Below the pieces are notes generated by a model. It was given only the letters and a program-made list of their open reading frames with translations. It was not told the origin of the DNA and searched no databases. Of a stretch of DNA of 64,000 nt, positions 7,375-59,724 are shown piece after piece; the stretch's first letter is position 1, and each line of letters begins with the position of its first letter. A program made the position numbers and the translations under genes. Source of the DNA: a virus; the IMG/VR virus record IMGVR_UViG_3300035189_000005, positions 10,182 to 74,181 of that record. One strand, written 5' to 3'.

Positions 7375-7680
7375 TCATTTGAGTTTCCCCCACTTACCCC
7401 GTGGACCTTTAGGGCCTTTGATCCTATCTGGCGATATTTCAGACTCAAACTGACTTACGCCCAAATGGTGCATAAGTACCCCCAATTGGCTCAGTGTTTT
7501 ACCACTACCTCGTTCGGACAACTTTTCCCACTCATCAAAGATGAGTGAGTCTACTTTATGGGCAGGAGGCAATTGCTCAGTATCTCCTGTGTAAAACAAC
7601 ACTTGTTCGTGGAGACTGATCTTGAGTCTCTCCAATATAGCCGGGCTCATTGACCCAGTTACTAATACGATTGTTCGCAT
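7375..7680 (-). CDS. hypothetical protein (MRTIVLVTG...)
   Basis: SD GGAG before ATG 7680. Confidence 0.65.
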   Translation of the reverse strand: MRTIVLVTGSMSPAILERLKISLHEQVLFYTGDTEQLPPAHKVDSLIFDEWEKLSERGSGKTLSQLGVLMHHLGVSQFESEISPDRIKGPKGPRGKWGKLK

Positions 7681-7693
7681 ACTGTTCTCCAAT

Positions 7694-7719
7694 AAAAAGA
7701 GGCCCACCGAAGTGGGCCT
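7694..7719 (-). terminator. intrinsic terminator closing the ncRNA array
   Basis: Minus strand AGGCCCAC-TTCG-GTGGGCCT-CTTTTT. Confidence 0.85.
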
Positions 7720-7736
7720 AAAGGTCGGGAAAAATT

Positions 7737-7908
7737 CGGTGTATTGGTTGGATAACTTCACATTACGGAATCGAACCGTAGTTTCCAGTGCTTCGCTCTC
7801 AGAGGCCCTAACCTTACTCGCCAATATCAGCTTTCCTGGTGAGAACATGTAACTACTGGCTGTCGTACTTGCCACTATACGAATGAAAAGTTACCCACCA
7901 ATACACCG
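7737..7908 (-). ncRNA. tRNA-like RNA A: 15-bp acceptor stem ending ACCA, D arm, T arm, ~65-nt insert in anticodon arm
   Basis: D arm CGUA-UAGUGGCAAG-UACG; T arm UACGG-UUCGAUU-CCGUA; closing helix with G:U pairs only on the minus strand. Confidence 0.75.
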
Positions 7909-7975
7909 TTGCTGCTAGTCCCCGGTGCACTGGGTACGTCAATTAAAGCCCGGACGCACACGGTCTATTCTTTTA

Positions 7976-8122
7976 ATGCATTGGTTGGATGTCCTAACGG
8001 GCAATCTTCGTGCGTTGACTGGTAGCTAAACACAAGTCTTCACCTGCGCCTATTGAACTATTCAATCCCCCAGAGAGCTTTCCCTATCCTTGGCCTTCGG
8101 ACCAGGACATCCACCAATGCAT
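7976..8122 (-). ncRNA. structured RNA B sharing the terminal stem/NCCA module, no T-loop
   Basis: AUGCAUUGG-UGGAUGUCCU ... AGGACAUCCA-A-CCAAUGCAU. Confidence 0.65.
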
Positions 8123-8254
8123 CCTCTTCAAAGGACACATTGGGTGAAACGTGAATGCTGAGCGGTTACATGTGGCAACGGCACAGCGCCTTGTCTAATA
8201 CATAGCGATTCTCCTTTGGTTCAACACTTGGAAGGAAGTGTCCACCTATTTGAT

Positions 8255-8340
8255 TGGGCGGGATCTGTCGCATTGGCACAAGGGCCCCACTGCGAAATGT
8301 TGCGGCAAGATTGCAGGTGATGCCTCATCAACCAGATCCC
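8255..8340 (-). ncRNA. tRNA-sized multi-hairpin RNA E
   Basis: GGGAUCUG/CAGAUCCC closing stem followed by GCCCA; internal hairpins UGAUG/CAUCA and UCGCA/UGCGA; AGUUUAU leader like RNA C. Confidence 0.45.
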
Positions 8341-8351
8341 ATAAACTAAGA

Positions 8352-8472
8352 GGGGGAGTAGGGAGTCGAACCCCACTTCCCTGGCCGCTAAGCCAGCTTA
8401 AATGCATAAGTCAACCAGACAGCTACTTCCAGACTATCCATGGTTCGTCTGGACCTCGCTTGCATTCCCCCC
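8352..8472 (-). ncRNA. tRNA-like RNA C with enlarged D-arm region
   Basis: 5' GGGGGGA and 3' GUGGGG-UUCGACU-CCCUAC-UCCCCC; AAUGCA/UGCAUU stem enclosing ~60 nt; CUGGC/GCCAG hairpin. Confidence 0.65.
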
Positions 8473-8478
8473 ATAAAA

Positions 8479-8677
8479 CTGGCATTGGATGGATGCCCTC
8501 TGTTGCTGGTATCGAACCAGCGTCTCATATGCTCACGACAGTTCTTCCAGAGCCTGTGCGATCTCTTACCTCAACGGAACCCGTCTTCAAGTACCTACCA
8601 CAAGTTGCAACTGCCTAGTGTGAGCGTGAATCAGCGTCCTACCTTTGGACGATACAGAAGACATCCACCAATGCCAG
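8479..8677 (-). ncRNA. tRNA-like RNA D: 15-bp acceptor stem ending UCCA, D arm, T arm, ~83-nt insert in anticodon arm
   Basis: D arm GUCC-AAAGGUA-GGAC; T arm GCUGG-UUCGAUA-CCAGC; GCUCAC/GUGAGC stem around the insert. Confidence 0.75.
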
Positions 8678-8734
8678 CTTGCTGCATTGTAGCTGCCGCT
8701 GGCATTGGGATTTACTGTTTACTCAGGGCGATGA

Positions 8735-8929
8735 TTACTCGCCGGACGCTTCGGAATCGGCCTTGTCGGCACGGTTCGAAACGGTCTGGAAGCTTTCCTC
8801 GACTTCGATGGCGGAACCATCGTTGAAGTTGATTTCGGTGCCGTTCGGCAGTTCCGCGAAGTGGCTGACCTTGGACAGATCGACACGAACACGGAAGCCG
8901 GAACGCAGTTTCAGTTTGGTGAAAGCCAT
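8735..8929 (-). CDS. small FlbD-like-fold protein, paralog 1
   Basis: Pattern VRVDLSKVSHF...GTEINFNDGSAIEVEESFQTV; SD GGAG. Confidence 0.7.
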   Translation of the reverse strand: MAFTKLKLRSGFRVRVDLSKVSHFAELPNGTEINFNDGSAIEVEESFQTVSNRADKADSEASGE

Positions 8930-8987
8930 TTTTGTTTCTCCAGAGATTTGAGGGGTCCATCCCCCCAAGAAAGGGTTGTTGTTGAAC

Positions 8988-9221
8988 TCAGGCTTCTTTA
9001 GCAGAGGCAGAATTGCCCCGGCCAGTAGCCTTGTTGATGAAACCACGCACCGAACGCGGCGTGTCACTTACGTGATACACGCCGCCATTCGATAGACTGA
9101 TGTGAGTACCCGAGGTCACTGCACCATCACTGTCGGTTGCCGGAGCAAAACCAACGATGTGAGCAGTATTCAGGTCCACCTTCAGATTGGTGTCATTATC
9201 GACCACACGGATGTAGGTCAT
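8988..9221 (-). CDS. small FlbD-like-fold protein, paralog 2
   Basis: Pattern VDLNTAHIVGF...GTHISLSNGGVYHVSDTPRSV; SD GGAG. Confidence 0.7.
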   Translation of the reverse strand: MTYIRVVDNDTNLKVDLNTAHIVGFAPATDSDGAVTSGTHISLSNGGVYHVSDTPRSVRGFINKATGRGNSASAKEA

Positions 9222-59646: not shown

Positions 59647-59724
59647 AGAGGGTTCGCCAAGTCTGGTTAAGGCACCGGGTTTTGATCCCGACACTCCTAG
59701 GTTCGAATCCTAGCCCCTCTTCCA
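59647..59724 (+). tRNA. tRNA-Gln (UUG)
   Basis: Cloverleaf: GCC-AAGTCTGGTTAA-GGC, CGGG-TTTTGAT-CCCG, CTAGG-TTCGAAT-CCTAG, encoded CCA. Confidence 0.9.

What the first reader, a model, noticed from the sequence alone, without database searches (positions are those of the whole stretch)
7737..8677. Two giant tRNA scaffolds with identical geometry: 15-bp acceptor stem + NCCA, intact elbow, cargo in place of the anticodon
RNA A: UGGGUAACUUUUCAU pairs with AUGUGAAGUUAUCCA (15 nt each), then A-CCA; U8-C9; D arm GUA-UAGUGGCAAG-UAC; stem CCAGU/ACUGG around a 65-nt insert (7790-7854); T arm UACGG-UUCGAUU-CCGUA. RNA D: UGGAUGUCUUCUGUA pairs with AACAGAGGGCAUCCA (again 15 nt), then U-CCA; U8-C9; D arm GUCC-AAAGGUA-GGAC; stem GCUCAC/GUGAGC around an 83-nt insert (8537-8619); T arm GCUGG-UUCGAUA-CCAGC. 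The sequences differ but the 15-bp length, elbow and CCA are kept, which argues against random decay. A double-length acceptor should not function in ribosomal decoding. Inference: a natural version of the tRNA-scaffold trick that stabilises a cargo RNA (sRNA, aptamer, antitoxin mimic), or an elbow/CCA decoy. Arm order is the normal tRNA order, unlike bacterial Y RNA (YrlA).
Basis: partly seen in the sequence, partly recalled or inferred. Interest (0 to 1): 0.88.

Follow-up and report, generated by a model that had tools for sequence, protein, structure and literature searches.

The report
Stem-clamped tRNA-shaped RNAs in N4-like phage
Two real, non-decoding tRNA-shaped RNA genes in an N4-like phage sit inside a long conserved closing helix that related phages wrap around quite different small RNAs, so the supposed "15-bp acceptor stem plus CCA end" is part of a shared clamp, not a tRNA end; what the RNAs do is unknown.

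Summary
RNA A (7738-7907, minus) and RNA D (8479-8677, minus) each have 15-nt helix strands, U8-C9, a canonical D arm, a stem carrying a 65- or 83-nt insert, and a canonical T arm, in one register.

The interpretation needs correcting. The "N-CCA" is not a free end. It is a bulged nucleotide plus the first bases of a conserved CCAAUGC strand that pairs with GCAUUGG just upstream. The closing helix is therefore about 26-27 bp long.

The same clamp closes RNA B, which is not tRNA-like, and seven further RNAs with unrelated cargo in other N4-like phages (Zuri, Holyagarpour, Ebordelon, Meara, UCB24, Arace01, one IMG/VR contig). Each copy has an upstream CCCAAUGC box that can hairpin with the 5' strand. 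A and D differ by 11 compensatory base-pair changes, so the fold is under selection.

I found no A/D-type homologue elsewhere. There is no Rfam match, no default ARAGORN call, and no Ro60, RtcB or tmRNA signal.

Best reading: these are tRNA-derived, non-decoding RNAs of a polycistronic ncRNA island. The clamp probably serves processing and stability, perhaps as an RNase III site, and the RNAs would act as tRNA-elbow mimics or cargo carriers.

Closest precedents are the phage T5 and T4 "tRNA-like stable RNAs of unknown function". This scan has noted analogous constant-stem cassettes in other phages, but not this sequence family.

The parts
8479..8677 (-). RNA D: tRNA-shaped RNA inside the closing helix. 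Outer helix 8680-8668 / 8488-8476; bulged U8489; inner helix 8667-8653 / 8504-8490; U8-C9 8652-8651; D arm 8650-8636; cargo stem 8625-8620 / 8536-8531 with insert 8619-8537; T arm 8521-8505.
   Evidence: Fold z = -6.2. ARAGORN with introns allowed and the threshold lowered to 90% draws a cloverleaf.
7737..7908 (-). RNA A: tRNA-shaped RNA inside the closing helix. Outer helix 7908-7898 / 7747-7737; bulged A7748; inner helix 7897-7883 / 7763-7749; U8-C9 7882-7881; D arm 7880-7865; cargo stem 7859-7855 / 7789-7785 with insert 7854-7790; variable AAAC 7784-7781; T arm 7780-7764.
   Evidence: Fold z = -5.6. ARAGORN relaxed cloverleaf.
8698..8709 (-). Upstream box of D (CCCAAUGCCAGC). It repeats the 3' strand and can hairpin with the 5' strand of D's closing helix.
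   Evidence: hairpin z = -4.1.
7923..7935 (-). Upstream box of A (ACCCAGUGCACCG). It can hairpin with the 5' strand of A's closing helix.
   Evidence: z = -2.95.
7975..8123 (-). RNA B: not tRNA-like, closed by the same bulged helix (GCAUUGG-UGGAUGUCC / GGACAUCCA-A-CCAAUGC). Its own upstream box lies at about 8133-8144.
   Evidence: Homologues with the conserved cores UAGGGAAAGCUCUCUGGGG and GCACGAAGAUUGCCCGU occur in phages Zuri, Holyagarpour and Meara.
8350..8472 (-). RNA C: tRNA-like RNA with a 7-bp acceptor, a canonical T arm, a variable-arm-like hairpin and an aberrant D/anticodon region. No CCA is encoded.
   Evidence: Relatives in Zuri and Meara share GAAGUAGCUGU and GCUUAGCGGC.
8256..8340 (-). 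RNA E: three-way-junction RNA with a covarying 9-bp closing stem.
   Evidence: 44 nt are 95% identical to L017:4130-4173. 11 of 27 pairs are compensatory across window, L017 and Meara.
7700..7719 (-). Intrinsic terminator (AGGCCCAC-UUCG-GUGGGCCU followed by a U-run) that ends the RNA array.

Best explanation
A and D are tRNA-derived RNAs that do not decode. They belong to a polycistronic island of five structured RNAs, in the order D, C, E, B, A and then a terminator. The island lies in the middle-gene region of an N4-like phage, downstream of the gp24 ATPase, gp25 VWA and dCTP deaminase genes.

Each of A and D keeps a complete tRNA elbow: U8, a D loop with A14 and G18-G19, and a UUCGAUN T loop. 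The anticodon loop is replaced by a 65- or 83-nt insert specific to this lineage. The acceptor position is fused into a closing helix of about 26-27 bp with one bulge.

That helix is a portable module, conserved as GCAUUGG.../...CCAAUGC, with an upstream CCCAAUGC box that can first hairpin with the 5' strand. Related phages place it around unrelated cargo.

Inferred mechanism:
1. During transcription the upstream box holds the 5' strand while the cargo folds.
2. The 3' strand then displaces the box and seals the RNA.
3. The two-turn duplex acts as a processing site, most likely for host RNase III, and as a shield against exonucleases. This releases stable L-shaped RNAs.
4. The released A and D present a tRNA elbow to host tRNA-binding factors while being unable to be charged or to decode. 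They would act as a decoy or sponge, or as a stable carrier for the insert.

Shown here: the structures, their covariation, the shared module, the cassette behaviour and the lack of decoding features. Inferred: the processing enzyme, the mature ends and the decoy or carrier role.
For: Structure and selection:
- Folds are far better than shuffles.
- A versus D shows 4 compensatory pairs in the inner helix, 3 of 5 in the T stem and 4 of 10 in the outer helix.
- G.U pairs make the stems better on the sense strand than on the antisense strand.
- There is no sigma-70-like promoter in the region, and one terminator follows A.

tRNA likeness:
- Three of the five GGUUCRANNCC sites in the window lie in this 1-kb cluster, and a fourth is the tRNA-Gln.
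- ARAGORN draws cloverleaves once introns are allowed and the threshold is relaxed.

Module:
- Nine closing helices of 17-27 bp share the GCAUUGG/CCAAUGC core and enclose unrelated cargo in seven N4-like phages.
- Holyagarpour carries a tenth copy, identical to Zuri's, which makes eight phages.
- The upstream-box hairpin is present in all six copies tested.
- Zuri and Ebordelon have identical flanks but different cargo.
- The M1 family, with three members, has 13 of 46 pairs compensatory.

Processing:
- Helices of at least 22 bp are the size that engages all RNase III contacts.
- G:C followed by three A/U pairs resembles the proximal box described in PMC1540722.

Precedent: phage T5 RNA1 and RNA2 are annotated as 'tRNA-like stable RNA with unknown functions'. 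They fold as tRNAs with an expanded middle.
Against: - No transcript data exist, so expression, mature ends and processing are unproven.
- No A/D-type homologue was found in IMG/VR, JGI metagenomes, INPHARED phages or the related phage records. Conservation therefore rests on two paralogues in one genome.
- The fit to RNase III rules is only partial. The distal box does not match the canonical UA/UG, the inner sequence is not conserved in Zuri, Ebordelon or M1, and the bulge is absent from some members.
- The inserts show no antisense match to the phage genome beyond shuffled controls. The host is unknown.
- No conserved partner protein was identified.
Confidence: 0.45

Rival explanations
1. 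A and D are Y-RNA-like partners of a host Ro60/Rsr protein. The long bulged closing helix would be the Ro60-binding stem. The tRNA-like domain sits in the Yrn1 orientation: stem, D arm, stem-loop, T arm, stem.
For: Chen et al. 2014 (PMC4201824) report that bacterial and phage Y RNAs carry tRNA-like domains. They also say Deinococcus Yrn1 has the arm orientation opposite to YrlA, which matches A and D. Several RNAs here share one stem, as multiple Y RNAs share a Ro60 site.
Against: The phage has no TROVE/Ro60 gene and no RtcB gene. The Ro60 motif GNCGAAN0-1G is absent from the A and D stems (read). No Y RNA, YrlA or other Rfam family matches even at E <= 10. The bulge lies on the 3' strand. The host is unknown.
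Confidence: 0.1
2. The three-strand module (upstream box, 5' strand, 3' strand) is mainly a cis-acting transcriptional or processing switch for the operon. The tRNA-like interiors of A and D would be incidental remnants of phage tRNA genes with no function of their own.
For: The module occurs with any cargo. Mutually exclusive hairpins are present in every copy tested. Related phages carry ordinary and degenerate tRNAs at the same locus. A and D are unique to this phage.
Against: T stems and inner helices keep pairing through compensatory changes, and the tertiary-contact bases (U8, A14, G18-G19, T-loop UUCGA) are intact in both RNAs. This would not be expected of drifting remnants. Only one terminator is present, after the whole array.
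Confidence: 0.15
3. A and D are functional tRNAs (Phe-GAA and Val-CAC, as ARAGORN labels them) whose 58- and 88-nt introns are removed and whose long leader-trailer helix is trimmed away.
For: With introns allowed at 90% of its threshold, ARAGORN finds cloverleaves with 7-8-bp inner acceptors and an intron at position 37/38.
Against: ARAGORN finds nothing at the default threshold or with -i alone, and Rfam tRNA does not match. The inserts are far shorter than the roughly 200 nt or more of bacterial group I tRNA introns (my own knowledge), and no intron family matches. The phage has no RtcB ligase. The acceptor continues as a perfect helix, leaving no single-stranded leader or NCCA for RNase P. 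RNase P measures a fixed distance from the elbow (PMC4919913). Extra bases lie between the D stem and the 'anticodon' stem.
Confidence: 0.03
4. The inverted repeats act at the DNA level, as miniature mobile elements, recombination cassettes or N4-type hairpin promoters, rather than as RNA structure.
For: Conserved termini with swapped interiors (Zuri versus Ebordelon) and direct repeats of CCAATGC flanking each unit look like cassette exchange. N4-like phages do use DNA hairpin promoters (PMC9163698).
Against: G.U pairs make the helices better on the sense strand only. Compensatory changes keep RNA pairing. Loops of 100-170 nt are unlike N4-type promoters, which have 3-4-nt loops. The interiors carry tRNA D and T arms. 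Cassette exchange at the DNA level can coexist with an RNA function.
Confidence: 0.05

Closest known systems
Phage T5 stable RNAs RNA1 and RNA2 ('tRNA-like stable RNA with unknown functions', GenBank AY543070), and RNAIII, RNAIV, RNA2H
   Same: They are phage-encoded and clustered with tRNAs and other small RNAs. RNA1 and RNA2 fold with acceptor, D and T arms and an expanded region where the anticodon arm should be. RNAIII, RNAIV and RNA2H are closed by 10-12-bp stems. Function is unknown.
   Different: T5 RNA1 and RNA2 have an ordinary 7-8-bp acceptor, not a 26-bp bulged helix. There is no GCAUUGG/CCAAUGC module and no upstream box. No sequence similarity was detected.
Phage T4 species 1 and 2 RNAs (rnaC, rnaD) of the T4 tRNA cluster (from my own knowledge, not checked here)
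   Same: Small stable RNAs co-transcribed with phage tRNAs, with tRNA-like features. Their function is unknown after decades.
   Different: As I recall, they are processed like tRNAs and end in CCA. Here the CCA is buried in a helix. I did not compare sequences or folds.
Bacterial Y RNAs with tRNA-like domains (YrlA; Deinococcus Yrn1), PMC4201824
   Same: A long closing stem plus a tRNA-like D/T-arm module. Several RNAs share one stem. Some are phage-encoded. Yrn1 is described as having the arm orientation seen in A and D.
   Different: There is no Ro60 gene nearby or anywhere in the phage. The GNCGAA Ro60 motif is absent. No Rfam match was found.
RNase III processing helices (T7 R1.1 and the other early sites; rRNA operon stalks), PMC1540722
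   Same: Duplexes of about two turns, often with an internal irregularity, bracket RNAs inside polycistronic transcripts. G:C followed by three A/U pairs resembles the proximal box.
   Different: The distal box does not match, and cleavage has not been shown. The upstream third strand has no counterpart that I know of.
Engineered tRNA scaffold for recombinant RNA expression (Ponchon and Dardel approach; extension in PMC3753655, listed, not read)
   Same: Cargo is inserted in place of the anticodon loop of a tRNA body whose elbow is kept.
   Different: As I recall, the engineered scaffold keeps a normal acceptor that is processed to a CCA end. Here the acceptor is sealed in a long helix.

Membership tests
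Canonical tRNA (Rfam RF00005) | Detected by tRNA models at their normal thresholds | tested here: not met
   ARAGORN at default settings and Rfam at gathering scores find only tRNA-Gln at 59647-59724. No tRNA match in 7400-9000 even at E <= 10.
Canonical tRNA (Rfam RF00005) | D arm and T arm with the bases that form the elbow (U8, A14, G18-G19, T-loop UUCRANN) | tested here: met
   Read directly. ARAGORN draws a cloverleaf at the relaxed threshold.
Canonical tRNA (Rfam RF00005) | 7-bp acceptor stem ending in a single-stranded discriminator plus CCA (encoded or added) | tested here: not met
   The helix runs 14-15 bp, then one bulge, then at least 10 more pairs. The CCA pairs with the upstream UGG.
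Canonical tRNA (Rfam RF00005) | 5-bp anticodon stem with a 7-nt loop | tested here: not met
   The stems enclose 65 and 83 nt.
Intron-containing tRNA | A self-splicing group I intron, or a bulge-helix-bulge site with splicing endonuclease and ligase | tested here: not met
   No intron family matches in Rfam at E <= 10. Inserts of 58-88 nt are too short for group I (my own knowledge). No RtcB in the phage. A splicing endonuclease was not searched for.
Y RNA (YrlA / Yrn1) | Encoded next to a Ro60/Rsr (TROVE) gene | tested here: not met
   PF05731 is absent from the complete 74-kb phage genome. The host genome is unknown.
Y RNA (YrlA / Yrn1) | Ro60-binding stem motif GNCGAAN0-1G (PMC4201824) | tested here: not met
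   Absent from the 5' strands of A and D (sequences). RNA B contains GGUCCGAAGG, but its homologues in Zuri and Meara lack it.
Y RNA (YrlA / Yrn1) | tRNA-like domain closed by a long stem formed by the 5' and 3' ends | tested here: met
tmRNA | tRNA-like domain plus a tag reading frame, detected by ARAGORN | tested here: not met
   ARAGORN -m finds nothing. The only Rfam hit is an 8-bit fragment.
Phage tRNA-like stable RNAs (T5 RNA1/RNA2 type; a descriptive class, not a sequence family) | Phage-encoded, in a small-RNA cluster, with tRNA D/T arms, an expanded middle and no usable anticodon | tested here: met
   for A and D. for T5.
Phage tRNA-like stable RNAs (T5 RNA1/RNA2 type) | Accumulates as a stable RNA in infected cells | not testable with these tools
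   No transcript data are available.
RNase III processing site | Double helix of about 22 bp or more | tested here: met
   17-27 bp in nine elements; 26 pairs in A and 27 in D. Size requirement from PMC1540722.
RNase III processing site | E. coli proximal and distal box consensus (pb G:C then three A/U pairs; db UA/UG about 10-11 bp away) | tested here: inconclusive
   The conserved core G:C, U:A, U:A, A:U fits a proximal box. Position 10 is U:A in A, B, D and L017. Position 11 is not U:G, and the other members differ. Strand orientation could not be checked without the figure.
RNase III processing site | Cleaved by RNase III | not testable with these tools
   Needs an enzyme assay, or an rnc mutant host.

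The most novel reading that the evidence does not exclude
The GCAUUGG/CCAAUGC three-strand clamp would be a dedicated RNA-display platform of Zuri-like N4 phages, recognised by a specific factor rather than serving only as a generic RNase III site. A and D would be purpose-built tRNA-elbow baits. Their fixed 20-bp distance from T loop to the bulged CCA-N-CCA would set them against a host enzyme that measures tRNA from the elbow, such as RNase P, the CCA-adding enzyme or a tRNA-cleaving defence nuclease. They would trap it without being processed.
Probability: 0.12. Interest if true: 0.85.

Novelty: new variant of a known kind. Interest (0 to 1): 0.55.

Why it matters
Phage tRNA-like stable RNAs have been known from T4 and T5 for decades without a known function. 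Recent work shows that phage tRNAs can counter host defences that attack tRNAs.

This locus offers a compact and tractable case. In one phage lineage a single conserved helix module is used as an interchangeable frame for unrelated small RNAs. Two of these keep a complete tRNA elbow but cannot decode or be charged.

If the clamp is a processing and stability device, it is a natural analogue of the engineered tRNA scaffold and could be reused for RNA expression. If A and D are decoys, they would point to a host factor that reads tRNA shape.

The relatives Zuri, Meara, Ebordelon and Arace01 were isolated on Pseudomonas hosts according to their records, so the module itself can be tested at the bench.

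Tried and rejected
Searches for homologues, all negative unless stated:
- blastn of the 1.2-kb cluster, and of A and D singly, against 50,697 phage records. There was no match at E <= 1e-5 and only chance matches at E <= 10. RNA B alone found Zuri, Holyagarpour and Meara.
- IMG/VR pattern scans with the 5' and 3' clamp motifs. 36 hits, of which only L017:2658-2811 pairs properly.
- IMG/VR scan with T loop plus 3' motif. 11 hits, all ordinary tRNAs followed by chance matches.
- JGI metagenome scan with 5' motif, T loop and 3' motif. 39 hits, all chance.
- The search for related loci with gp25 gave 4 loci without the RNAs. With the RNAP subunit it gave none.
- My own descriptor search for a T arm stacked on a helix of at least 11 bp, over 0.93 Mb of loci. 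It found only A, D, an overlapping alternative pairing of A's T arm (11 pairs) and one unrelated element, L048:3238. A relaxed run over the related phages' T-loop sites gave noise only.

Family and function tests, all negative:
- Rfam at gathering scores and at E <= 10.
- TROVE and RtcB.
- ARAGORN tmRNA mode.
- Antisense matches of the inserts to the phage genome were no better than shuffles.
- The RNA B core in 185,579 bacterial and archaeal genomes gave 7 scattered matches in unrelated taxa, by my rough estimate no more than chance. B is therefore not a copy of a host RNA.

Ideas rejected:
- RNA E as a hammerhead. It has CUGAUGA but no GAAA or UH in register.
- The 12-nt identity of RNA B to the 5' end of human Y1 RNA (recalled from memory). 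It is not conserved in B homologues.
- The upstream hairpin as an N4-type promoter. Its loops are 4-19 nt, against 3-4 nt in such promoters.
Full report
**Context.** The window is 64 kb of a complete 74,181-bp virus record with direct terminal repeats. It is an N4-like podovirus.
- It encodes rIIA, the small heterodimeric RNA polymerase, the gp24-type AAA ATPase, the gp25-type DUF2201/VWA protein and a 3,473-aa virion RNA polymerase.
- By gp25 its nearest named relatives, at about 54% amino-acid identity, are Pseudomonas putida phages Zuri, Ebordelon, Holyagarpour and Meara. Next come phages CL and CRC2, Erwinia phage UCB24 and P. syringae phage Arace01.
- The finding lies on the minus strand in a 1-kb stretch with no credible gene. 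This stretch is downstream of gp25, a dCTP deaminase and a small ORF, and it ends at an intrinsic terminator at 7719-7700.
- No sigma-70-like promoter was found inside it.

**The observation.**
- a 15-nt 5' strand, then UC;
- a D arm whose loop carries A14 and G18-G19;
- a stem enclosing a 65-nt (A) or 83-nt (D) insert;
- a short linker;
- a T arm with the loop UUCGAUN;
- a 15-nt 3' strand directly abutting the T stem.

Supporting measurements:
- Minimum-free-energy folds reproduce this arrangement and beat all 200 shuffles (z = -5.6 and -6.2).
- Three of the five GGUUCRANNCC sites in the window lie in this cluster, and a fourth is the true tRNA-Gln.
- ARAGORN finds nothing with default settings. 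With introns allowed and the threshold at 90%, it draws both RNAs as cloverleaves, using the inner 7-8 bp as the acceptor. The tRNA likeness is therefore objective but sub-threshold.
- Rfam gives no match, even at E <= 10.

- The 'discriminator + CCA' is not an end. In both RNAs the CCA pairs with the UGG immediately 5' of 'U1', and the helix continues for at least 10 more pairs.
- The 'discriminator' is a single bulged base on the 3' strand. The whole closing helix has 26 (A) or 27 (D) pairs.
- Each 15-position inner helix has one non-pair: U.U at position 12 in A and A.A at position 15 in D.
- The same sequence, AUUGG-UGGRU ... AYCCA-N-CCAAU, closes RNA B (7975-8123). B has no D or T arm, and its inner helix is only 9 bp long.
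- The '15-bp acceptor + NCCA' is therefore the inner part of a module that does not depend on tRNA-likeness.

**The module in other phages.** Pattern scans of IMG/VR found one further true member, on another N4-like contig (L017:2658-2811). Inspecting the syntenic unannotated gap in named relatives found more:
- a homologue of B in Zuri and Holyagarpour, with a perfect 23-bp GCAUUGG/CCAAUGC helix;
- a different cargo in the same helix and the same flanks in Ebordelon;
- a three-member family (M1) in Meara, UCB24 and Arace01. It has a covarying 10-bp inner helix and an internal T arm stacked on a separate 9-bp acceptor-like stem.

Nine distinct elements in seven phages have closing helices of 17-27 bp around the GCAUUGG/CCAAUGC core, with unrelated interiors. 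Holyagarpour's copy duplicates Zuri's and makes an eighth phage.
- G.U pairs make the stems better on the sense strand than on the antisense strand, so the structure acts in RNA.
- Every copy has an upstream box, A(A/C)CCCAAUGY, 20-35 nt before the 5' strand. The box repeats the 3' strand and can hairpin with the 5' strand (z from -2.8 to -4.5). This gives two mutually exclusive pairings.
- Meara's B homologue uses an unrelated 18-bp stem. Cargo and clamp therefore recombine freely.

**Selection on A and D.** Compared position by position:
- inner helix: 6 identical pairs, 3 one-sided changes and 4 compensatory double changes;
- T stem: 3 of 5 pairs compensatory;
- outer helix: 4 of 10 pairs compensatory.

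That is 11 compensatory changes in 30 positions, with the tertiary-contact bases intact. This argues against decaying pseudogenes.

However, no A/D-type RNA, meaning a T arm stacked directly on a helix of at least 14 bp inside the clamp, was found anywhere else. I looked by blastn, by IMG/VR and metagenome pattern scans, by my own descriptor search over 0.93 Mb of loci and in the full records of ten related phages. The equal 15-nt spacing rests on two paralogues. Stems rarely tolerate indels, so it is weak evidence for a ruler.

**What they are not.**
- Not decoding tRNAs. They have no 7-nt anticodon loop. They have no single-stranded leader or NCCA for RNase P, which measures a fixed distance from the elbow (PMC4919913).
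- Not intron-containing tRNAs. The inserts of 58-88 nt are too short for bacterial group I tRNA introns (my own knowledge). There is no RtcB and no intron family match.
- Not tmRNA.
- Probably not Y RNAs. Chen et al. 2014 describe tRNA-like Y RNAs in bacteria and phages, and say Yrn1 has the arm orientation opposite to YrlA, as seen here. But the phage has no TROVE gene, and the GNCGAA motif is absent from A and D.
- Not DNA-level elements, given the strand asymmetry and compensatory changes.

**Most likely mechanism (inferred).**
1. The array is transcribed as one RNA with the upstream middle genes.
2. For each unit, the upstream box holds the 5' strand while the interior folds.
3. The 3' strand then displaces the box, giving a duplex of two or more turns.
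4. A duplex of at least 22 bp is the size that makes full contact with bacterial RNase III. The conserved G:C, U:A, U:A, A:U block resembles the proximal box of Pertzev and Nicholson. The distal box does not fit, and the inner sequence is not conserved in all members (PMC1540722). I rate the RNase III assignment plausible but unproven.
5. The released RNAs would be exonuclease-resistant L-shapes. They would present a tRNA elbow with a foreign arm, acting as a decoy for a tRNA-binding factor or as a stable carrier of the insert.

The inserts show no antisense match to the phage genome beyond shuffled controls. The host is unknown, so the carrier idea could not be tested further.

**Known relatives in kind.**
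- The GenBank record of phage T5 annotates RNA1 and RNA2 as 'tRNA-like stable RNA with unknown functions', and RNAIII, RNAIV and RNA2H as stable RNAs.
- T5 RNA1 and RNA2 fold as tRNAs with an expanded middle but a normal 7-8-bp acceptor. The other three are closed by 10-12-bp stems.
- T4 species 1 and 2 RNAs are a second precedent (from memory, not checked).
- Earlier notes of this scan describe constant-stem, swappable-cargo cassettes and tRNA-shaped RNAs in other uncultured phages, read as RNase III sites. I used these only as leads to the T5 record and to PMC1540722. None concerns this sequence family.

**Verdict.** A and D are genuine, selected, non-decoding tRNA-shaped RNAs. The distinctive claim of a double-length acceptor ending in CCA is a misreading of a conserved closing-helix cassette. 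That cassette is shared with non-tRNA RNAs across a group of N4-like phages. This is a new variant of the known but unexplained class of phage tRNA-like stable RNAs. The three-strand GCAUUGG/CCAAUGC clamp was not found in Rfam or in the few papers I searched, and it can be tested at the bench in the isolated relatives.

Noticed in passing
window 8256-8340 (-); L017:4100-4180; L094:993-1095: RNA E is a three-way-junction RNA. 44 nt are 95% identical between two otherwise diverged N4-like phages. It has a covarying 9-bp closing stem and a conserved G-YUGAUGAGG ... CCGCARC ... GA core. Meara's copy has CUGAUGA and CUGA next to the closing stem, like a box C/D kink-turn. No Rfam match.
   Followed up: partly
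window 7975-8123 (-); L092:6995-7130; L094:2490-2625: The RNA B family has invariant cores UAGGGAAAGCUCUCUGGGG and GCACGAAGAUUGCCCGU, with a variable hairpin and interchangeable closing stems. It is absent from 185,579 bacterial genomes apart from 7 scattered matches, by my rough estimate no more than chance. Function unknown.
   Followed up: partly
window 8350-8472 (-); L092:7147-7255; L094:775-890: The RNA C family is tRNA-like, with a 7-8-bp acceptor, a canonical T arm and conserved GAAGUAGCUGU and GCUUAGCGGC. The D/anticodon region is aberrant and no CCA is encoded. It is similar in style to T5 RNA1 and RNA2.
   Followed up: partly
window about 8200-8250 (-): This is a remnant of a 5' leader hairpin (AUAGGUGG..CUUCC.AGU) that is conserved in other phages and a Shine-Dalgarno site. 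In Zuri, Ebordelon and Meara the same leader precedes the next gene (a tellurite-resistance-like gene in Zuri and Ebordelon). Here it is followed only by ATG-TAT-TAG, so the gene seems to have been lost. RNAs B and A now occupy its place.
   Followed up: no
L092:6666-6896 (phage Zuri): An unannotated 76-aa cysteine-rich ORF (several CxxC pairs) lies directly upstream of the RNA island in Zuri and Ebordelon. An annotated hypothetical protein occupies the same position in Meara; I did not compare it. The window phage has an unrelated small ORF in that position (8735-8930).
   Followed up: no
L094:903-990 (phage Meara): A tRNA-like gene with a canonical D arm and T arm and an encoded CCA. It has an 18-nt 'anticodon' loop and two mismatches in the acceptor. 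ARAGORN does not call it.
   Followed up: no
L004:8258-8348 and 8537-8631: Another N4-like contig has, at the syntenic site, a 91-nt tRNA-Arg(TCT) with a long extra arm and a 95-nt tRNA-Leu(CAA). A further T-arm-containing structured RNA lies upstream, at about 8000-8180.
   Followed up: no
L107:1612-1736 (Erwinia phage UCB24): After tRNA-Gln and tRNA-Asn comes a 125-nt tRNA-like RNA with a 7-8-bp acceptor and a canonical T arm, but an expanded interior. A terminator follows it.
   Followed up: no
L048:3238-3352 (unrelated 101-kb IMG/VR contig with 14 tRNAs): A 115-nt element inside a tRNA array has a canonical T arm stacked on a 16-bp helix, followed by a U-run. It was the only element outside this phage, in 0.93 Mb searched, with a T arm stacked on a long helix.
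   Followed up: partly
L017:2086-2303: A further 218-nt RNA is closed by a helix of about 25 bp with one bulged U. Its stem sequence (CUGCAUCGGAGG...) is different. It lies next to the clamp-type element on the same N4-like contig.
   Followed up: no
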